Positions 21,347-32,897 of a stretch of DNA of 64,000 nt are shown here, piece after piece. Under the pieces are notes generated by a model. The model searched no databases, had not been told where the DNA came from, and saw nothing but the letters and a program-made list of their open reading frames with translations. The translations under genes were made by a program, and so were the position numbers. Origin of the DNA: an uncultured delta proteobacterium (lineage in GTDB: Bacteria; Desulfobacterota; Desulfuromonadia; Desulfuromonadales; BM103); contig CAVQRZ010000029.1 in assembly GCA_963715335.1 (NCBI GenBank), positions 38,385-102,384 on the forward strand, given 5' to 3'. How positions within the stretch are numbered: position 1 is the first letter of the stretch; each line of letters begins with the position of its first letter.

Positions 21347-22033
21347 ATGTCCTGTATCAAGGACTGGCCCGTGGCCGACCGGCCGCGGGAGAAACTTCTT
21401 TCAACAGGTCCCTCGACACTCAGCGACACCGAGCTTCTTGCCTTGATCCTGCGAACGGGTCATTCGGGTAGCGGCAGCAGTGCGCTTGACCTGTCTCGCC
21501 AGCTGCTGACGCGCTTCGGTTCCTTGCGCGCCATGGCGTCTGCGGCGGCTGCTGAACTCTGTGAAGTGCCCGGGATCGGCCCGGCCAAGGCCGCGGAGAT
21601 TCTGGCGCTCGGCGAGTTGGCCCGCCGTTTCGCCACCAGCCCCCTCTCGCCCGGCACCCGCTTCACCAGCTCCGGTGAGGTTTTCGCCCATTTCCACGAA
21701 CGTTTGCGCGACCGCAAGAAGGAAGTGTTCCTCACCCTGCTGCTCGACAGCAAGAACCGGGTCCTGCGGGAGATCCAGGTCTCCGAGGGAAGCCTTAATG
21801 CCAGCATCGTACATCCCCGGGAAGTTTTCCAGCCGGTAATCCGCGAGTCTGCCGCCGCAGTTCTTTTCATCCACAACCACCCCTCGGGCGACCCTGCACC
21901 GAGCTGCGAGGATCTTGAGCTGACAACCCGTCTGCGCGATGCCGGGGCCTTAATGGGGGTGCGCGTACTGGACCACATCATCATCGGCAACGGTCGCTAC
22001 GTGAGCCTGGCGGACCGGGGCCTGCTCGAATGA
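21347..22033 (+). CDS. radC: RadC family JAB-domain protein
   Basis: RPREKL, HhH motif VPGIGPAK, VHPREVF, HNHPSGD, LDHII. Confidence 0.95.
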   Translation: MSCIKDWPVADRPREKLLSTGPSTLSDTELLALILRTGHSGSGSSALDLSRQLLTRFGSLRAMASAAAAELCEVPGIGPAKAAEILALGELARRFATSPLSPGTRFTSSGEVFAHFHERLRDRKKEVFLTLLLDSKNRVLREIQVSEGSLNASIVHPREVFQPVIRESAAAVLFIHNHPSGDPAPSCEDLELTTRLRDAGALMGVRVLDHIIIGNGRYVSLADRGLLE

Positions 22034-22087
22034 ACCGAGGGTTATTTGATATGCAATGGAGATCTTTTGCTCAAGGAGGGACAAAGT

Positions 22088-22459
22088 ATGATTATGGTCA
22101 GGAGGGCTTCGGGTTTCACACTGGTTGAAGTCATGGTTGCACTGGTCGTTTTCCTGGTTGCCAGCATGGGGCTGCTGCCCCTGCTGTTAACCCACATGCA
22201 GGCAAACCTGGAGCTCAAACAGCATGCAACGGCGCGCAGACTGGCCAACGAAGTGATGGCTGAGCTGCAAGTCGTCGCTTATGGGCGCCTCGGGACGCTG
22301 GCCGAAGTACCGCTCCGGGAGGATGGCATCGAGATCCGGCAGAGGGTTGATGCGACCGGGCTGCCGAACGGCCAGAGCAGAATCACCGTGACCGCACACT
22401 GGCAGCTACGGGACCGTCCGCAGCGCTACCAGCTGCAGACGATCCGGTCGGCACCATGA
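22088..22459 (+). CDS. Type IV minor pilin, PilV-like
   Basis: Prepilin cleavage site G|FTLVE plus hydrophobic helix; RBS AGGAGG. Confidence 0.8.
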   Translation: MIMVRRASGFTLVEVMVALVVFLVASMGLLPLLLTHMQANLELKQHATARRLANEVMAELQVVAYGRLGTLAEVPLREDGIEIRQRVDATGLPNGQSRITVTAHWQLRDRPQRYQLQTIRSAP

Positions 22460-23391
22460 ACAGCTCAATCGGCTATGCCGGGATGACCCTGGTTGAACTT
22501 ATGGTCGCCATGACGGTCGCCGCAATTCTCGGGATTATGAGCCTGCACCTGGTTCTGGGCTTTCAGTCGCGCATTCTCGCCGAAATCAGCCGCAACGACC
22601 TGCAGGACCGCGCAGAACGCCTGATCCGGTTCATGGCCAGCGACATCCGTGAGACAGCTTTCCTGCTCGGACCGGTACCGCTGACAGCCGACGGTGCGCC
22701 CCTGACTCTGACCCATGACAGCCTGGCCGGCGACCCGGTCGAAACCCTCCCCATTTCGTTGCTTGCCGAAGACGTCGCCGATGGCGACGACCGCCTGACG
22801 ATCGTCAAGGCTGAGCCCTTTAACCCGCCGCTGCGACTCGCCCAGGCGGCGCAAGTCGGCGAGACCTCGGTGGTTCTGAATCGTCGTCCGAATTCCAGTC
22901 CCGGTTCGACGCGTGAGCTGCAACCGGCGCCCGAGGCGATCAATCACCTGGTCTTCGCCGGTCATCGCATCTGTTACCCGCTACAGAGGGCGGACCTTGT
23001 TGTGGACCTTGAGCAGCCTCTCCGGGAAACGGTGTCTGCCGAAACGGAAGTTTTCGGCCTGCGCGCCTATACCTACACGGCAGAGCCGTTTGCCGGGAGC
23101 AGGCGCCTGCGCCGGGACGATTTCACCAGCCGCGACATCCTCGATGAGGCCGTGGACGGCCTGCAGTTCGAGTACCTGCTCGATGACGGAGCCATAGTCG
23201 ACCGACCGCTCAACACAAGGACGGTCAACGGGGTCCGGATCAGCCTGCTGGTACGCAGCTTACGCCAGGACCGGGACTACAGCGATAGCGGCGTTTATAC
23301 TCTGGCCAACCGGGTTTACGGGCCGTTTCGTGATCATTTCCGCAGGCACCTGGTCACGCAACTGGTCGAGGTGAAAAACCATGGCCTGTAA
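22456..23391 (+). CDS. Type IV minor pilin, PilW-like
   Basis: G|MTLVELMVA; LIRFMASDIR; DGLQFEY; VRISLLVRS. Confidence 0.82.
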   Translation: MNSSIGYAGMTLVELMVAMTVAAILGIMSLHLVLGFQSRILAEISRNDLQDRAERLIRFMASDIRETAFLLGPVPLTADGAPLTLTHDSLAGDPVETLPISLLAEDVADGDDRLTIVKAEPFNPPLRLAQAAQVGETSVVLNRRPNSSPGSTRELQPAPEAINHLVFAGHRICYPLQRADLVVDLEQPLRETVSAETEVFGLRAYTYTAEPFAGSRRLRRDDFTSRDILDEAVDGLQFEYLLDDGAIVDRPLNTRTVNGVRISLLVRSLRQDRDYSDSGVYTLANRVYGPFRDHFRRHLVTQLVEVKNHGL

Positions 23392-23914
23392 GCAGCGCGG
23401 CATGACACTGGTCAGTGTCGTACTGGTGCTGGCGGTCCTGCTGACTCTGGCCCATATCCTGGCGGAAAAAACCTGGCAATCGACTCGCCAGACCGGCGCG
23501 GCCGACAGGCGGGAACAGGCCTTCTGGGTAGCGCAGGCAGGGATTGAGGCCGCCCGGCAGAGATTGGCCGCCAGCTATGCCGCCAGCCGCGGCTGGCGAA
23601 ATTATCTGTCTGCCGACACAGCAGGGTTTTATCCGCAGACGCCGACCTGGACCGATACGGTCAACGCCATCCCCGTCGAGATTTTCCTGCGCGACAATCA
23701 TGACGGGGATGGCGACCTGCGCATCGACAACGACCTGAAAATTTTTGTCCTGGCACGGGCCAGGGGGCCGGGAGGCATCGAGGCAATGGTTGAATGCCTG
23801 TGCGGCTTTGACCAGCCGGCGGCGACGGGGTCAACCGCAACCGGTCGAGGCATAGGGGAGATTCTGGTCGATCTCACTGCGCAACCGGTCAGCACCTATG
23901 AGATGGCCGATTAG
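23381..23914 (+). CDS. Type IV minor pilin, PilX-like
   Basis: QRG|MTLVSV lacking Glu5, typical of PilX/GspK; AFWVAQAGIEAA. Confidence 0.8.
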   Translation: MACKQRGMTLVSVVLVLAVLLTLAHILAEKTWQSTRQTGAADRREQAFWVAQAGIEAARQRLAASYAASRGWRNYLSADTAGFYPQTPTWTDTVNAIPVEIFLRDNHDGDGDLRIDNDLKIFVLARARGPGGIEAMVECLCGFDQPAATGSTATGRGIGEILVDLTAQPVSTYEMAD

Positions 23915-23949
23915 TCCTGTTATCTGACTGACATAAATGGAGGGACAGC

Positions 23950-25704
23950 ATGAGTGGAAATCGCCCCGTGTACCTGTTGGTTTGTCTTTGTTGCTGGCTG
24001 GCGAGCCACGGACACAGCCTGGCCAGTGACTTGTATGATGAAGCCGTGACCACCACTCCGGCGTATGCCGACGGCGTGATCTATATCGCCAGCGCCGAAA
24101 CCCAGCGCCCTCGCGGACACCTGCGGGCCATCAATCTGCTTGACAGCATGCCGCTGGTCCTCTGGGATGCAGCAGAGCACATGCCGCCAGCCGGGACTGA
24201 CAGGGAACAACCGGAGAGCATTCAGCCCGACAACCCGTATCGCACACTCTTCACCAATCTCGGCGACTCTTTGCTGCCTCTCGAGGCCGCTCAGGCAGAA
24301 CGCCTGCACCCCGCCCTGGGCAGCGCATCAGTTATCGATTCGGCAATCCTCCTGCATGCCGTGCGCGGGCGGCGGGGCGGCACCCCGGAACTGCCCGCCG
24401 GAACCGCCGAGGATCCGCAGCGCCTCTGGGGAATCAGCCGCTCTTCACCGGTACTGGTCGGTGGCAGCCCGGTCGACCTGGAGGCTGGTCAGCGCCAGCG
24501 CGTTCTCTACGTAGGAGCCGAGGACGGCATGCTGCACGCGTTTTTCGTCAGCCGCTGGGATGACCAAACCGGCAACTACCTCAATGATGACCAGGATGGC
24601 GGCATAGAGCTATGGGCGTACCTGCCCGGCAGCTTCCTTTCCCGCCTTGCCGATCAACCCTTCGACAACCCCCCCGGCCAAATCGCCATCCACCTGGACG
24701 GCACACCGGTCGTTGGCGAACATTTTGCTGATTTTGACGGCGACGGCCAGCGCAGCTGGCGAACCCTTCTGGCCGCCACCGGTACCGTCCTGCAGAGCCG
24801 GCGCAGCTGTCTTTTCGTCCTCGACGTCACAGACCCGTACCAGCCCGAACTGCTGTGGGAAATGCTACTACCCGGCTCGGGGATCGGTCGGACCCGCGGC
24901 GTCAACCTGGGCCGATGCAAAAACAGCGCGTCAGACTGTCTTTACCTGACCGCCGACTTTAACCAGCAGACCGGTTCTGCCGGGGTGCATGCCCTGGCAG
25001 TGTCGCTGGCAACCGGCCAACTGCTCTGGCAGTTCAGTACTGGATACGCTGCATCAGGACCGATCGCCGAAGCGACACCGGCCATCCCGGCACTGATGGA
25101 CCTTGACGGGGATGATCGTCATGATGCCCTGATCTTCGGTGACCTGGTCGGACAGCTCTGGGCTCTCGACCTGGGTGACGGCAAAGCCTATGGCGACGCG
25201 CCGATCTTCACCGTACCAGGCGGCGTTGATGAGCCGATCGGAGCCGGCGTGGCCATCCACGACAAAGTTGCAGTGTTCGGTACCGGAGGAATTGCCGGAA
25301 CCAGCGATCTTTTTCAGTATGCACTTTATGCAGTGAACGTATCCGCAGATGGCGGCAGCCTGCGTTGGCGATATCCGCTACAAACGGGTGAGAAAGTTTG
25401 GGCAACCCCGGTCCTCGATGCCTTCGGCAACACAATCTTTGCTGCAGCAGCAAACTATCTGCCACTACCCCGCACCGACGGGCAACCGACAACCGGCAGG
25501 CTTGTGGCCGTCGACCGCGATGGAGCCGAAAGTTCGAGTCGAGAAACGACCGCGGCGACAGTCGGCCGGGTTATCGTCTCGCCCGGCGTGGTCCTGTCGG
25601 TGGACATGCGTGGAGAAGTCACCCAGTTCGGCACCGTCAGCCGTCCGATTGAACCAACCCCTGGCCGGGGATCGGTTCGGATTCTGTCGTGGAGACCGCT
25701 ATGA
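23950..25704 (+). CDS. PilY1/PilC-like beta-propeller pilus protein (short form)
   Basis: Signal peptide; LYVGAEDGMLHAF, ELWAYLP, LDGTP, FVLDVTDP, DLDGDD, GDLVGQLWALDL, VFGTG. Confidence 0.82.
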   Translation: MSGNRPVYLLVCLCCWLASHGHSLASDLYDEAVTTTPAYADGVIYIASAETQRPRGHLRAINLLDSMPLVLWDAAEHMPPAGTDREQPESIQPDNPYRTLFTNLGDSLLPLEAAQAERLHPALGSASVIDSAILLHAVRGRRGGTPELPAGTAEDPQRLWGISRSSPVLVGGSPVDLEAGQRQRVLYVGAEDGMLHAFFVSRWDDQTGNYLNDDQDGGIELWAYLPGSFLSRLADQPFDNPPGQIAIHLDGTPVVGEHFADFDGDGQRSWRTLLAATGTVLQSRRSCLFVLDVTDPYQPELLWEMLLPGSGIGRTRGVNLGRCKNSASDCLYLTADFNQQTGSAGVHALAVSLATGQLLWQFSTGYAASGPIAEATPAIPALMDLDGDDRHDALIFGDLVGQLWALDLGDGKAYGDAPIFTVPGGVDEPIGAGVAIHDKVAVFGTGGIAGTSDLFQYALYAVNVSADGGSLRWRYPLQTGEKVWATPVLDAFGNTIFAAAANYLPLPRTDGQPTTGRLVAVDRDGAESSSRETTAATVGRVIVSPGVVLSVDMRGEVTQFGTVSRPIEPTPGRGSVRILSWRPL

Positions 25705-26345
25705 CGAGACGGTTTCAAAGCGGATCGTTCAGCCCTGTCCGAGCCACCCACGGCTTCACCCTTCTGGAACTGTTGCTGGTGATTGCCATCGTCGGCATCC
25801 TTGCCGGCACGGTCAGCTGGGGGAGCAGGCAGCTGGTACAGGGTTGGCATCTCAAGCGCGCCGGTCAACAACTTTACGCAGGGCTCAAGTCGCTCCAGGC
25901 CCAGGCAGAGCTTGCCGGCAACCTGGCCTTGGGTAACGGGGCGCTGGTCGCCCGACGGCATTTCCTGGTCTTTGATCGGCAGACACAGAGCTATAGCGCA
26001 TACAGCTGGCTGGACCATAACGGCAACGGTGTCGCAGAGAGCGGGGAATCTGGCCGGTTGTGGCAGACCGGTTTGCCCCCCGGTGTGACCTACGGCTGGG
26101 CCCCCGGGATCAATCGCCGGGCCTGCAGCAACACCAACACCCCGCCGGGCGAGGCCATCTCTTTTGCCAGTCCCGACTACCCCCCCTGCAACGACCGCCC
26201 ATGCATCAAGTTCGACCGGCACGGCTTCAGTGCCATGGGGCCGGGGGCGATCTATCTCAGCGCAGGCGGGCAGTCTCTGGCGATCACCGGCACGCGCCCG
26301 GGGCTCTTCACAATTTGCCAATGGGATGGTGAACGCTGGCGCTGA
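25701..26345 (+). CDS. Type IV minor pilin, FimT/FimU (GspH-like)
   Basis: HG|FTLLELLLVIAIVGIL prepilin motif; overlaps the upstream stop (ATGA). Confidence 0.8.
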   Translation: MTRRFQSGSFSPVRATHGFTLLELLLVIAIVGILAGTVSWGSRQLVQGWHLKRAGQQLYAGLKSLQAQAELAGNLALGNGALVARRHFLVFDRQTQSYSAYSWLDHNGNGVAESGESGRLWQTGLPPGVTYGWAPGINRRACSNTNTPPGEAISFASPDYPPCNDRPCIKFDRHGFSAMGPGAIYLSAGGQSLAITGTRPGLFTICQWDGERWR

Positions 26346-26526
26346 AAGGCCCGGGCAGCCGACAGCATGCTTAACTGAAGTAAGGCAGGTATAGCGTTCA
26401 CCCCCTTTGCCGCCTGCGCCGGCCAAGTCGATGATTTTTTACTTCTCCGCACAAATGGTGATAGAATCGGTCATCTATACGAGAAGGCGCCTTGTCGCTG
26501 CTTGCAAATCACACCAGGAGTCGATC

Positions 26527-27680
26527 ATGCCGGCCAAGGTAAAATCACACGCTGCCACGTGTAACCATTTCGACAAAAGCCAGAGCTCTGCAATGGCCAA
26601 CCTGCAGCACGAACTTTTCAGCGAGGGGGTCGTCTCCCGTGCCCTGCTTGATGCGGTCCCCAATCCGTTATTGATTATCAACCAGGCGTGGCAGGTCGTC
26701 TACGCCAACCCGGCGGTCCGCGCCCTGGTCGACAAAGGCGGCGAAACCAGGGTCAGGGGACTCTCGGTCGGGCGAAGCCTTTCATTGCGTGCATTCCCGG
26801 CACGGCCTTCAGGAAGCCGGCAATAACGCCTGCTGCCGGATCTGCGGTGTCGCCCGGGTCTTGTCGATCTCTTTGAAGGGTGAGGCAGCAAGCGAAGATT
26901 GCCACCTGGCCTGCGAGCTGACCGGCGCGGCAACCAACCTCGACCTGCGGGTCTGGGCAACGCCGCTGGAGTTTCATGGCGAAAGATTCTCCCTGCTCAG
27001 CCTGGTCGACATCAGCGACAAGTTCCGGCGCGAGATGCTCGAGAAGATCTGCTTCCATGATCTGCTCAACACCCTTTCCAGCATCAGGGGCTTTCTCAGC
27101 ATCATCAAGGATGAAACGATCGAAGACCACGACGAAATCTGTGATCTCCTCGAACGTACCACGCAGAATTCGATTGACGAAATCATGGCCATACGCCTGC
27201 TTGACAGTGTCGCGCACAAGGATCTTCAGGTCCAACCGGAAGCCCTGGAAAGCCTCGCGTTCATGGAACTGATGGTGAAAACGACACAGGGCCACCCGGC
27301 CGCCGACGGCAAGCAGCTGGATAGTCGCCGCATCCGACTCCAGACCGTTCAGGACAGACCCTCGCCTGCTGCGCCGGGTCATCAGCAACATGACCATCAA
27401 CGCCCTTGAAGCAACCCCGACCGGAGGCACCGTCACCCTCGGTTGCTCAGCGGACACCACGACCATGCGCCTCTGGGTCCACAACGACGGGCTGATTGCG
27501 CAGGACGTCCGCACCCAGATCTTCCGCAAGGTCTCCTCGACCAAGGGGAGTGGACGCGGCATCGGCACCTACAGCATCAAACTGCTTAGCGAGGCTTTGG
27601 GCGGGGAGGTTTACTTCACCAGCACCGAAAGCGACGGCACGGTGTTCTCCCTGTCACTGAAAAACCCGGACCGGGGTTGA
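26527..27680 (+). pseudogene. PAS-domain sensor histidine kinase split by two frameshifts (possibly sequencing errors)
   Basis: PAS (LLDAVP..VVYANPA), H-box FHDLLN and HATPase (NMTINALEA, GRGIGTYS) lie in three successive ORFs; breaks near 26772 and 27320. Confidence 0.8.
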
Positions 27681-27794
27681 AGGCCGGCCGCTTATTCCAA
27701 GTCTTTCCGGGAGGTTACGAGAAGAATGCTAACTATATGTTTCTAGGTGATTTTTCATGAGCAAATTACCTGAAATTATAATATTTTAGTTACC

Positions 27795-27822
27795 TTGACA
27801 GCGCTGGACAAGCCGCTAGGCT
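27795..27822 (+). promoter_or_regulatory. sigma70-type promoter of the candidate ncRNA
   Basis: TTGACA-N16-TAGGCT with an AT-rich upstream region. Confidence 0.6.
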
Positions 27823-27828
27823 TTAACA

Positions 27829-28030
27829 TAGACAGTGACGAGATAGGCCAGTTTGGCGCGTGTAAAAAACCTGCGGGTGAACGATGGTATCGGAGCAATC
27901 CAGCCAGTCGGCCCGGACAGGACCTGAGTCAAGCCGTGGAACTCCTTTAGAAGGGAGCAGAAACAGCAGGCTGTTGAGCAAAGCAGCCGAGTCAGGGTCG
28001 CCCATGAGCCGTTTCGTCACTGTTGTTTCT
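27829..28030 (+). ncRNA. Unassigned structured non-coding RNA (~200 nt)
   Basis: Closing helix ACAGTGACGAGA (27832-43) / TTTCGTCACTGT (28012-23), nested internal helices, a GNRA loop, own promoter and terminator. Confidence 0.65.
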
Positions 28031-28042
28031 TTGGCCCCAGAG

Positions 28043-28080
28043 AAAAAAGCTTTAAAGCCGCAGGGCTTTAAAGCTTTTTT
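28043..28080. terminator. Strong bidirectional intrinsic terminator
   Basis: AAAAAAGCTTTAAAGCC-GCAG-GGCTTTAAAGCTTTTTT perfect 17-bp stem. Confidence 0.9.
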
Positions 28081-28324
28081 ATTAGGTTTGCAAACTCTAC
28101 TGGTGAAAAGGATCGATCACACGATTGTATATCACCTTTAAATCGTTGACTGGTGTTGAAAGCAACTTTTTCAGCCATCGGACCTTCCACAGTTAATCAT
28201 TACGTTCGCAAAGGCAGCATCCTGCAAAACGGGGGTGTGGTCATACGTGCTTCACGACAGGGCCATGATTTGCCCTCTCTCCAAATATAACCAATCAAGT
28301 CATATATATACGGTATTTTTTATC

Positions 28325-28368
28325 TTGACGGTGAGGCGGCCTGCGTGTATTTTGATAACGGTTTTCAA
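28325..28368 (+). promoter_or_regulatory. feo promoter with overlapping Fur-box-like palindrome
   Basis: TTGACG-N17-TATTTT; palindrome TTGATAAC-G-GTTTTCAA (28352-28368) overlaps -10 and the start site. Confidence 0.7.
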
Positions 28369-28473
28369 TTTCATGCAGAGCAGATTAATCAATCCTGGTA
28401 AATCCACAAAGCCTAAAGACGATTTAAAATTCGCCCAGGGGGCCAGTATGGCAACCCTCACAGGAGCAATATC

Positions 28474-28707
28474 ATGCAACACCATCTTGGACAATTGTCG
28501 GTCGGCGAAAAGGCCGTAGTAAGTGGCTTCGCAAAAGGACAGAAAGAGTATCGCGCCAAGCTTCTGGCCATGGGCCTGACTAAAGGCATTGAACTTGAAT
28601 TAACTAGAGTTGCTCCCCTGGGTGATCCGCTGGAGATCAGTGTCCGGGGTTTTTCCTTAAGCTTGCGCAAGGCGGAAGCGGCAATGGTGTTGGTGGAAAG
28701 GAGTTGA
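28474..28707 (+). CDS. feoA: Ferrous iron transport protein A
   Basis: KLLAMGL, RVAPLGDPLEISVRGFSLSLRK. Confidence 0.95.
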   Translation: MQHHLGQLSVGEKAVVSGFAKGQKEYRAKLLAMGLTKGIELELTRVAPLGDPLEISVRGFSLSLRKAEAAMVLVERS

Positions 28708-28712
28708 AAGCG

Positions 28713-31043
28713 ATGCAGAAGAAGTGCCTCAAAATTGCTGTGGCGGGCAACCCCAACTGCGGCAAAACCACCCTCTTTAACGAGTTGACCGGTTCCCGTC
28801 AGATGGTAGGCAATTGGCCCGGTGTAACCGTCGACCGTAAGACCGGCATGTACTCTTTTGAAGGGCACGATTTCGAGCTGGTCGATATTCCCGGGATCTA
28901 TGCCCTGTCTGCCCTTTCCACAGATGAGAAAGTTGCCCGAGATTATATCCTGTCAGAAGACTACGACTTGATCATCAATATTGTCGATGCCGCCAATATC
29001 GTGCGAAACCTTTATCTGACCACGCAGCTTCTGGAAATGCGTGTGCCTATGATTGTCGTTCTGAACAAGATGGACGTCGCCAAGGCAAGGCAGGTAAGAA
29101 TCGATACGCAAGAGCTCTCGGACCGACTGGGAGTACCAGTAGTGCCGATTGCAGCCTCAAAGCGTAGCGGTCTGGAGTTGCTCAAAAAAACCATTCATCA
29201 ATGTGCCGAGCAAAACCCGATTTCGAAAGCCGATGTGATCTACCCGGTCGAAATCCAGGAAGCCGCCACCATACTGACTGATCAGGTCCGCACTTTAGCG
29301 GCCCAAAAAAGACTCAGAGCTGACTGGCTGGCCATGAAGCTCTTGGAAGACGACCCTGAATTTGTCAATATTCTGGATGCTGCGACCGCGGCTGATCTTG
29401 AAAAACAACAACAAAAAATTACCCGTCACTTGGATGATGACGCTGACATCGCCATCGCCGATGCGCGATATGGGTTTATCCATTGGCTGACCGAAAGTGC
29501 CGTGTCGTACACCACCAAGGTGGGCAGGACACTAACCGACAAGATCGACAAAGTGGTTTTGAATCGTCTTTTAGGCCTGCCAATCTTTCTGCTGATGATG
29601 TACCTGACCTTCATGTTCACCATCAATGTCGGCGGCGCATTTATCGACTTCTTTGACATTGCCTTCGGGGCAATTTTCGTCGACGGTATGGCAGAGTTGC
29701 TGGGCAATATCAACGCCCCGGCATGGTTGATCGGAATCGTTGCCAGCGGTATTGGTGGCGGAATCCAGACTATGGCAACCTTTATCCCGCCAATCGGATT
29801 CATGTTCCTGGCTCTGGCCGTTCTGGAAGGCTCCGGCTACATGGCACGCGCTGCTTTCGTCATGGATCGCTTCATGCGAATGCTCGGTTTGCCTGGGAAG
29901 TCCTTTGTGCCGCTATTGGTCGGGTTCGGTTGCAACGTGCCGGCCATCATGGCCACCCGGACCCTCGAAAACCAGCGCGATCGCACCTTGACCATCATGA
30001 TGAACCCGTTTATGAGCTGCGGAGCGCGCTTGCCGGTCTATGCCCTGTTTGCCGCCGCATTCTTTCCGGTGGGCGGCCAGAACGTCGTCTTTTTGCTTTA
30101 CCTGGCCGGAATCGGTTTTGCTGTTCTGACCGGATTGATCCTCAAGTACACCCTGCTCAAGGGAAGCATCACCCCTTTTGTTATGGAATTGCCGCCCTAC
30201 CATGTGCCGACCGTCAAATCGGTGCTGCTGCGCACCTGGGACCGGCTGAAATCGTTCCTGCTCAAAGCCAGCCGCATTCTGATTCCGATGGTTGCCATCC
30301 TGGCGTTGTTCAATACCATGTCGATAGACGGCACCATCGGCCACGATGACAGCAAGGATTCTCTGCTCTCGACAGTCAGTCGTGCTGTGACACCGGTCTT
30401 TGCTCCGATGGGGATCAAGCAAGACAACTGGCCCGCAACGGTCGGCATTTTCACCGGAGTGTTCGCCAAGGAGGCTGTGGTCGGCACCCTCGATGCAATC
30501 TATCTGCAGAACGAACTTCAAGAAGAGCTTGCCGCAGGTGGCAAGGCAGAAGCGTACAGTCTCAGTGCGTCACTGTTGGAGGCGGTAGAGACCATTCCGG
30601 AAAATCTGGCCGGAGTACTTGATACTCTCACTGACCCCCTGGGCTTGAGCATTGGCGACACCAGTTCCATTGAAATCGCCGCCGAGACGCAGGCTGTCAG
30701 TGCCGGGACCTTCGGGGCTATGGGCAGACTGTTTGACGGCAAGATCGGCGCTATCGCCTACATGCTGTTCATCCTCATGTATTTCCCCTGCGTAGCGGCC
30801 ATGGCCGCTGTCTACCGTGAGACCAACATGCGCTGGACGCTCTTTATTGCTGCCTGGACAACTGGGTTGGCTTATGCCTCGGCAACCAGCTTTTATCAAC
30901 TGGCGACCTTCGAAAGGCATCCGAGCTTCTCGACGGCCTGGCTAGCGGGTTGCGCATTACTTTTGGTGGTCGTCGTGCTGGTCATGCGTTTCATGGGGAA
31001 AGAACCCCGTGGTTCTGGCGTGACTGTCCCGGTTAAGGGTTGA
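28713..31043 (+). CDS. feoB: Ferrous iron transport protein B
   Basis: GNPNCGKTT, VGNWPGVTV, DIPG, NKMD, GFGCNVPA, FMSCGARL, YFPCVA. Confidence 0.97.
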   Translation: MQKKCLKIAVAGNPNCGKTTLFNELTGSRQMVGNWPGVTVDRKTGMYSFEGHDFELVDIPGIYALSALSTDEKVARDYILSEDYDLIINIVDAANIVRNLYLTTQLLEMRVPMIVVLNKMDVAKARQVRIDTQELSDRLGVPVVPIAASKRSGLELLKKTIHQCAEQNPISKADVIYPVEIQEAATILTDQVRTLAAQKRLRADWLAMKLLEDDPEFVNILDAATAADLEKQQQKITRHLDDDADIAIADARYGFIHWLTESAVSYTTKVGRTLTDKIDKVVLNRLLGLPIFLLMMYLTFMFTINVGGAFIDFFDIAFGAIFVDGMAELLGNINAPAWLIGIVASGIGGGIQTMATFIPPIGFMFLALAVLEGSGYMARAAFVMDRFMRMLGLPGKSFVPLLVGFGCNVPAIMATRTLENQRDRTLTIMMNPFMSCGARLPVYALFAAAFFPVGGQNVVFLLYLAGIGFAVLTGLILKYTLLKGSITPFVMELPPYHVPTVKSVLLRTWDRLKSFLLKASRILIPMVAILALFNTMSIDGTIGHDDSKDSLLSTVSRAVTPVFAPMGIKQDNWPATVGIFTGVFAKEAVVGTLDAIYLQNELQEELAAGGKAEAYSLSASLLEAVETIPENLAGVLDTLTDPLGLSIGDTSSIEIAAETQAVSAGTFGAMGRLFDGKIGAIAYMLFILMYFPCVAAMAAVYRETNMRWTLFIAAWTTGLAYASATSFYQLATFERHPSFSTAWLAGCALLLVVVVLVMRFMGKEPRGSGVTVPVKG

Positions 31044-32483: not shown

Positions 32484-32897
32484 TCATTGCAGCTCTGCCG
32501 CCTTGCACTGCGCCACCACGCCCTTGAGCCAGGCGATCTCGTCCGGTGCAAACTGCTTGTTGTATGCGGTGCCGATATTCATCGCCCAATGCAGCTTGTC
32601 AGGAGTCATCTCGGCCAGCACATGCCCCGGCAATTGCAGGCAGGGGACCTCTTCCTCGGCCCATTGATTGAGCCGCTGCTGCTCGTCAAAGAAGACCAGG
32701 TAGTCGATGCCGTCAGCTTCGACAATCAGCGGCACTTCGATCTTCTCCTTGGTGCCCTTGTCATCCGTGTCGACTGTTTCGTTGATGGTCGGGACGAAGA
32801 AATTCATGTTGAGGAACAGGTCATAGAAGCCGGACTGGGCCTTGTGGTCGTCAGGGTTGGCGCGCAGGGCTTCGAGGGCTTGATCGATTTCAGTCAT
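32484..32897 (-). CDS. SseB N-terminal-domain family protein
   Basis: FFVPT...PL...YLVFFD..RL..W...WAMNIG..FAPDEI pattern. Confidence 0.65.
   Translation of the reverse strand: MTEIDQALEALRANPDDHKAQSGFYDLFLNMNFFVPTINETVDTDDKGTKEKIEVPLIVEADGIDYLVFFDEQQRLNQWAEEEVPCLQLPGHVLAEMTPDKLHWAMNIGTAYNKQFAPDEIAWLKGVVAQCKAAELQ

What the first reader, a model, noticed from the sequence alone, without database searches (positions are those of the whole stretch)
27795..28080. Stand-alone ~200-nt multibranch RNA of no family I recognise
Seen: a complete transcription unit, from TTGACA-N16-TAGGCT to a perfect 17-bp terminator, with no credible ORF inside. Folding by hand gives: P1 ACAGUGACGAGA-U-A-GGC / GCC-G-UUUCGUCACUGU closing the ends; P2 GGCG/CGCC; an unpaired GUGUAAAAAAC; arm A with nested CUG/CAG, CGGGU/GCCCG, CGA/UCG, UGGU/GCCA capped by GGA-GCAA-UCC (GNRA); arm B GACCUGA/UCAGGGUC enclosing the hairpins CUCCUU/AGGGAG and GGCUGUU/AGCAGCC. 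Several G-U pairs favour a plus-strand RNA over a DNA palindrome. The internal loop UGGAA...CAGAAA resembles the paired T-loops that bind tRNA elbows in RNase P, T-boxes and the L1 stalk (speculative). It lacks the hallmark motifs of RNase P, SRP, tmRNA, T-box and the cobalamin, lysine, TPP and c-di-GMP riboswitches, and is too branched for a typical 6S rod. This is my best candidate for an undescribed element in the window.
Basis: partly seen in the sequence, partly recalled or inferred. Interest (0 to 1): 0.82.

Follow-up and report, generated by a model that had tools for sequence, protein, structure and literature searches.

The report
Undescribed structured RNA in sediment bacteria
This is a real, separately transcribed, folded non-coding RNA of about 200 letters from a family missing from the RNA-family library, found in part of one order of sediment bacteria; it probably works by binding a protein that is still unidentified.

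Summary
The element is real: a stand-alone ~200-nt structured RNA (about 27830-28030, + strand). It has no Rfam match. Homologs occur in at least 54 of 233 genomes of the same order, up to three copies each, as a long (~200 nt) and a short (~155 nt) type. None were found in sampled genomes outside the order, or in viral and plasmid searches. Members share a TTGACA-16-TAnnnT promoter, a sequence-conserved 5'-3' closing helix with compensatory changes, a three-way junction with an A-rich linker, and a U-tract. The closing helix plus U-tract probably doubles as the terminator; the 17-bp terminator downstream is not conserved. RNA-seq contigs from 3 of 4 laid studies cover only the RNA body. It fails 6S, CsrB, Y-RNA, retron and MITE tests. 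Best reading: a trans-acting protein-titrating RNA with unknown partner (0.4); a 6S-like polymerase decoy is the main rival (0.2). Function is inferred, not shown.

The parts
27751..27794 (+). Conserved AT-rich upstream promoter module; contains a possible second promoter TTCATG-17-TATAAT (27754-27782). The equivalent region of short-type genes holds an IHF-consensus-like site
   Evidence: Consensus across homologs; unique in this genome by PWM, 57.7 versus next 25.1; IHF-like match in 18 of 30 short-type upstream windows (17 at -63..-66) versus 28 of 868 background windows (IHF consensus recalled)
27795..27822 (+). Sigma70-type promoter TTGACA-16 nt-TAGGCT
   Evidence: Spacer is 16 nt in 29 of 30 long and 28 of 30 short members; the other 3 were unmatched
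27830..28030 (+). The ncRNA; ends predicted, not mapped
   Evidence: Promoter geometry, conservation limits, RNA contigs 27858-28019 in 3 of 4 laid studies
27831..27844 (+). P1 5' strand of the closing helix
   Evidence: 97.3% of cells paired, 31 cells changed on both sides, 51 sequences
27846..27859 (+). P2/P3 5' strand: bulged helix extending P1, pairing with about 27999-28009
   Evidence: RNAfold and RNAalifold
27860..27869 (+). Unpaired A-rich linker of the three-way junction (GUAAAAA in long, AAAGUA in short types)
   Evidence: Unpaired probability about 0.9; alignments
27870..27921 (+). Arm A: CCUG/CAGG base, variable apical hairpin; branched in short types
27923..27996 (+). Arm B: CCUGAAUC/GAUUCAGG base enclosing two hairpins; reduced to one hairpin in intermediate and short types
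28011..28024 (+). P1 3' strand
28023..28030 (+). U-rich tract directly after the GC-rich P1 strand; probable primary terminator together with P1
   Evidence: At least 6 U in 8 nt in 29 of 30 long and 27 of 30 short members; a separate terminator within 100 nt in only 2 of 31 short loci
28043..28080 (.). 17-bp bidirectional intrinsic terminator; probable back-up, sequence not conserved
   Evidence: some separate terminator in 23 of 30 long loci, of varying sequence

Best explanation
It is the long-type member of an undescribed family of stand-alone structured RNAs of Desulfuromonadales-type bacteria. Shown: a conserved promoter, a covarying fold on the + strand, independence from neighbouring genes, 1-3 paralogs per genome, and presence in RNA libraries without its flanks. 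Inferred, step 1: the 5' end pairs with the 3' end (P1), and this long-range helix followed by the U-tract terminates transcription, giving a compact RNA with protected ends. Inferred, step 2: the RNA acts in trans by binding and titrating (or scaffolding) a protein, recognised through the P1-P2 rod and the three-way junction with A-rich single strands, while arm length and branching are free to vary. The partner is unknown. It is not CsrA, Ro60, ProQ or a reverse transcriptase in this genome. Hfq (present; recalled to bind A-rich strands and 3' U-tails) or another A-rich or double-strand RNA binder is the first guess. Confidence that it is a genuine ncRNA gene is about 0.93; the figure given is for the mechanism.
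For: Family and covariation. All 13 invariant columns over 51 long and short members lie in P1 or the tail, while arms vary from 137 to 230 nt total length. Unpaired positions are mostly A: 1019 of 1832 in long and 593 of 1056 in short members. Downstream gene is convergent in 30, co-directional in 25, absent in 6 of 61 loci. Three G024 copies fall in three separate subclades with orthologs in other genomes; G002 and G015 carry both types. Redundant copies with a dedicated promoter are typical of titrating RNAs such as CsrB/C and RsmX/Y/Z (recalled). Expression. Hfq in 5 of 5 genomes tested.
Against: No binding partner was identified and no protein tested co-distributes with the RNA. Hfq is also in non-carriers. 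ARN repeats are not enriched over shuffles. P1 conservation could partly reflect promoter and terminator constraints rather than protein recognition. The expression evidence is contigs only, with no strand, ends or level; only 4 of 19 listed runs were laid, and 1 of the 4 covered 27609-27833 instead of the body. The covariation controls do not account for relatedness, and alignment A4 was fitted to the model.
Confidence: 0.4

Rival explanations
1. It works like 6S/Ms1/CoRP: a promoter-mimic decoy that binds RNA polymerase, with the A-rich linker as 5' bubble and pRNA template, arm A as apical arm and arm B as an enlarged 3'-bubble hairpin.
For: Size 150-205 nt, paired ends, and the order closing stem, unpaired strand, arm, 3' hairpin. 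Truncated 6S-1 with only a bubble and short arms still works in vitro (PMC8876501, passages). New classes of polymerase-binding RNA exist (PMC11077062, passages). These genomes tolerate several 6S paralogs.
Against: The 6S apical motif is in 39 of 40 order 6S loci and 0 of 61 family members at up to 2 mismatches. Order-specific 6S profiles and a 6S-2 covariance model miss the family: no hit on the RNA in 27 loci apart from one reverse-strand 7.5-bit fragment, while 3 of 3 controls hit. RF00013 gives no hit at E<=10. Carriers keep their own 6S: 40 of 40 genomes tested. The most conserved part here is the terminal stem, which is dispensable for 6S binding. The arms are branched, not rod-like.
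Confidence: 0.2
2. An Hfq-dependent base-pairing sRNA that regulates mRNAs in trans.
For: Own promoter, 3' U-tail, Hfq present, multi-copy.
Against: The conserved single strands are A-rich and differ between long and short types; the conserved sequence is buried in P1. No significant complement in the genome (best E 0.12).
Confidence: 0.15
3. A MITE-like DNA element whose terminal inverted repeats are P1.
For: 14-bp inverted ends, variable interior, variable neighbours, patchy distribution.
Against: The promoter and a 45-bp module outside the repeat are conserved at fixed spacing. Mismatches are G-U, not A-C (53 versus 2). One copy in this genome. Paralogs are old and syntenic; an sseB-like gene lies nearby in 10 of 29 oriented loci across families. 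None in plasmid or viral searches.
Confidence: 0.04
4. A tRNA-elbow-binding RNA using paired T-loops.
For: UGGAA and CAGAAA flank a hairpin in this copy.
Against: Each motif is in 1 of 30 long homologs at that place; consensus is CAGAA/CAGAUG, compatible with a tandem G-A loop. The sub-domain is deleted in 3 intermediate and all short members.
Confidence: 0.03
5. A riboswitch or attenuator controlling the feo operon.
For: feoA starts about 450 nt downstream.
Against: feoB is downstream in 2 of 61 loci and the downstream gene is convergent in 30 of 61. feoA has its own promoter-like site at 28325-28353.
Confidence: 0.02

Closest known systems
6S RNA (RF00013); Ms1 and CoRP as other polymerase-binding RNAs
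   Same: Stand-alone, 150-200 nt, 5'-3' closing stem, central unpaired strand, paralogs in one genome
   Different: No 6S apical motif or model score; branched arms; conservation concentrated in the terminal helix; coexists with 1-4 true 6S matches per genome
CsrB/RsmX/Y/Z protein-titrating sRNAs
   Same: Multi-copy stand-alone RNAs with a conserved upstream module (recalled)
   Different: GGA motifs mostly paired (12 of 94 long, 3 of 85 short unpaired); CsrA in 9 of 54 carriers versus 104 of 179 non-carriers and not found in this genome
Y RNA (Ro60/Rsr partner)
   Same: Conserved 5'-3' stem, variable interior, 3' U-tail (architecture recalled)
   Different: No TROVE protein in 5 of 5 carriers tested; no bulged Ro-binding helix seen
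Orphan structured RNA motifs in Rfam 15 (raiA and others)
   Same: Same category: conserved, covarying, function unknown
   Different: No match to any of 4227 families for this or 14 homolog loci

Membership tests
6S RNA | Score against RF00013 or an order-specific 6S model | tested here: not met
   controls scored 37.8-47.2 bits
6S RNA | Conserved apical motif of the order's 6S RNAs | tested here: not met
   39 of 40 6S loci versus 0 of 61 members at <=2 mismatches
6S RNA | Rod with central bubble, about 180-200 nt | tested here: inconclusive
   Size and closing stem fit; three-way junction with branched arms does not
6S RNA | Binds sigma70 holoenzyme and templates pRNA | not testable with these tools
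   Needs co-IP and in vitro transcription
CsrB/Rsm sRNAs | Multiple loop-exposed GGA motifs | tested here: not met
   short types have a mild GGA excess (5.0 versus 3.65 in shuffles) but 3 of 85 are unpaired
CsrB/Rsm sRNAs | CsrA in the genome | tested here: not met
   Not found in G000; 9 of 54 carriers
Y RNA | Ro60/TROVE partner encoded | tested here: not met
   0 of 5 carriers; controls rang
Retron msr-msd | Adjacent or available reverse transcriptase | tested here: not met
   No RVT_1 in G000, G052, G091; present in 1 of 4 carriers; no shared adjacent gene
RNase P / T-box / L1-stalk T-loop module | Conserved interdigitated T-loop pair | tested here: not met
   1 of 30; true RNase P RNA lies on contig C19
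MITE | Boundaries at the inverted repeats, many copies, strand-neutral pairing | tested here: not met
Riboswitch / cis-leader | Consistent co-directional downstream gene class | tested here: not met
Hfq-dependent sRNA | Hfq binding and mRNA base pairing | not testable with these tools
   Hfq present; no clear seed or target

The most novel reading that the evidence does not exclude
A new class of abundant bacterial ribonucleoprotein RNA, for example a further type of polymerase- or regulator-binding RNA, whose 5'-3' closing helix is both the recognition element and its own terminator across a 130-180-nt folded loop, so that only correctly folded transcripts are released; diversified into paralogous long and short types mainly in non-flagellated lineages.
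Probability: 0.25. Interest if true: 0.82.

Novelty: new variant of a known kind. Interest (0 to 1): 0.62.

Why it matters
Well-supported new families of stand-alone structured bacterial RNAs are uncommon. This one appears in metatranscriptomes of several sediment studies while its flanking genes do not. It was probably missed because most carriers are metagenome-assembled genomes. Alignments, two covariance models, predicted ends and at least one complete carrier genome (G061) make a pull-down or deletion straightforward. If the closing helix serves as a long-range intrinsic terminator, or the RNA binds polymerase without the 6S motif, it extends known RNA mechanisms.

Tried and rejected
Rfam at gathering and E-value level. 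An eyeballed likeness between arm A and the genome's second 6S RNA failed profile, motif and covariance-model tests. The sseB-like neighbour as partner: found in 126 of 233 genomes, many without the RNA, and not found in several carriers; no family member near sseB in 18 of 20 further loci scanned with R2 (all 20 in the generic scan). CsrA, ProQ (0 of 5), TROVE (0 of 5) and reverse transcriptase as partners. Small ORF. Viral contigs: 0 of 12 pattern matches are members. Plasmids: no match. The weak R1 hit in G040 (L045) and the pattern hits in G165 and G087:C6 lack the closing stem or promoter and were dropped. A dif-like search gave nothing useful. The T-loop regex was faulty and was redone. 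Earlier-findings look-ups returned nothing related except one different element.

Full report
Observation. The core 27828-28030 folds at -83.3 kcal/mol with z -4.55 on the + strand and z -2.81 on the - strand. Rfam 15 gives no gathering-level hit in the window, no meaningful hit at E<=10 around the locus, and none for 14 homolog loci at E<=1. The genome has its own 6S (92.5 bits, plus a second 6S-like RNA at 43.7 bits), RNase P, SRP and tmRNA elsewhere.

A family. DNA search found matches in 18 of 36 same-family genomes and 0 of 24 others. A covariance model from 21 of these (R1) reached other families of the order. Those hits are shorter RNAs with the same promoter and closing helix. A promoter-plus-helix pattern matched 44 of 233 order genomes, against 2 for the reversed control; two matches were false. 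A model of the short type (R2) hit 26 of 151 order genomes. The union is 54 of 233 genomes in 15 of 27 families (list). This is a lower bound, since the models covered only part of the 233. R2 found nothing in 75 same-class genomes of other families or in a 150-genome phylum sample; R1 was not run there. An exact-pattern scan of the GTDB collection gave 93 stretches; 31 have the closing helix with the U/G tail, and all 31 are titled Desulfuromonadales, related families or delta proteobacteria. The order name is inferred from those titles. A metagenome scan added 6 loci, all short-type members.

Anatomy. Members have a TTGACA-16-TAnnnT promoter (57 of 60 distinct sequences), a predicted start about 7 nt after the -10, a 12-14-bp helix P1 joining the ends, a bulged extension, and a three-way junction with an A-rich unpaired linker and two arms. 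Arm B is large in the long type and arm A is branched in the short type. All 13 invariant columns over 51 members are in P1 or the tail. P1 is 97.3% paired, with 31 cells changed on both sides at 2 pairs, which largely reflects the long/short split. In the long type 9 of 51 pairs show compensatory change, with 1 of 500 shuffles as high. In the short type the figures are 10 of 42 on the MAFFT alignment (14 of 500) and 19 of 42 on the model-fitted alignment (0 of 500). These controls ignore relatedness. P1 wobbles are G-U/U-G in 53 cells and A-C/C-A in 2, which fixes the + strand. A U-tract follows the GC-rich P1 strand directly: at least 6 of 8 U in 56 of 60 members. Only 2 of 31 short loci have a separate terminator, against 23 of 30 long loci. 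I infer that P1 plus the tract is the primary terminator and 28043-28080 a back-up. A 45-bp module upstream of the -35 is also conserved, is unique in this genome, and in short types matches a recalled IHF consensus at a fixed position (17 of 30).

Expression. Nineteen runs hold part of the stretch, 16 on record as RNA. I laid 4, from 4 studies, on 25500-30500. In three, a single 99%+ contig covers 27858-28014, 27859-28019 or 27858-28008, with no comparable cover of the flanks. The fourth covers 27609-27833 only. Contigs give no strand, ends or level, so this is supportive, not proof.

Context. Neighbours vary. The downstream gene is convergent in 30 of 61 loci and feoB follows in only 2. In other members of the genus the RNA sits between the pilin-like gene and the sseB-like gene, so the kinase and feo-CDF genes look like later insertions on either side. 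An sseB-like gene lies within the fetched region in 10 of 29 oriented loci (12 of 41 loci were not oriented by that script), but it does not co-distribute with the RNA. Paralogs in G024 belong to separate subclades, and two genomes carry both types. Carriers tend to lack CsrA (9 of 54 versus 104 of 179) and flagellin (4 of 21 versus 9 of 19 over cut-off, hand-picked set). Kin are not independent, so this is a tendency only.

Mechanism. Not cis-regulatory, not coding, not a DNA repeat. Conserved sequence is buried in a helix and the open strands are A-rich, which argues against a base-pairing seed. A stable, redundant, separately promoted RNA with a fixed core and free arms best fits a protein-binding RNA acting in trans (0.4). 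CsrA, Ro60, ProQ and reverse transcriptase were not found in this genome; Hfq was. A 6S-like polymerase decoy remains possible by topology (0.2) but fails every sequence and model test.

Literature. Searches returned no paper describing this family; only listings and abstract starts were seen for most. Passages were read from PMC8876501 (6S anatomy), PMC11077062 (Ms1, CoRP) and PMC11109978, which reports Geobacter and Desulfobacteraceae motifs as cis-acting candidates upstream of named genes; its supplement could not be read and might list a related motif. The library lacks most subscription papers.

Verdict. A genuine, apparently undescribed ncRNA family with a solid structural model and unknown partner. 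Novelty: new variant of a known kind. Interest 0.62.

Noticed in passing
window 26407-27680: The upstream PAS/histidine kinase gene is in three frames, with single-base insertions near 26770 and 27319 relative to the intact 383-aa ortholog in G002; pseudogene or assembly error.
   Followed up: partly
L027:1501-1681 (G000:C25:148745-148925): Second 6S-like RNA just under the Rfam cut-off (43.7 bits). Most genomes tested in this order have 2 or more 6S matches (33 of 40, some partial), and both types share an almost invariant apical motif.
   Followed up: partly
window 28325-28372: feoA promoter-like site followed by a Fur-box-like 19-mer at 28354-28372 (13 of 19 to the recalled consensus); the feoABC-CDF block appears inserted beside the RNA in this lineage.
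   Followed up: no
window 21347-26345: radC followed by a minor-pilin / PilY1-like cluster ending just upstream of the kinase (names from sequence reading; only the last gene was scanned).
   Followed up: no
window 32484-32897: SseB-domain gene (PF07179), the commonest neighbour of the family; found in 126 of 233 order genomes.
   Followed up: yes
L003 and L020 (G004): The two G004 copies lie in near-duplicate gene neighbourhoods on two contigs, possibly two strains in one bin, so they may not be true paralogs.
   Followed up: no
L011, L013, L018, L244, L245, L248 flanks: Recurrent short GGGACAC...GTGTCCC-type palindromes near several loci; probably an unrelated extragenic repeat.
   Followed up: no
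L052:1286-1515, L090:2019-2189, L042:1501-1662, L044:1501-1656: Divergent members (156-230 nt) that keep promoter, P1 and tail but have unrelated interiors; further subtypes likely.
   Followed up: partly
L242 upstream: One short member has a collapsed promoter spacer (TTGACC directly before TATAAT), possibly a degenerate copy.
   Followed up: no
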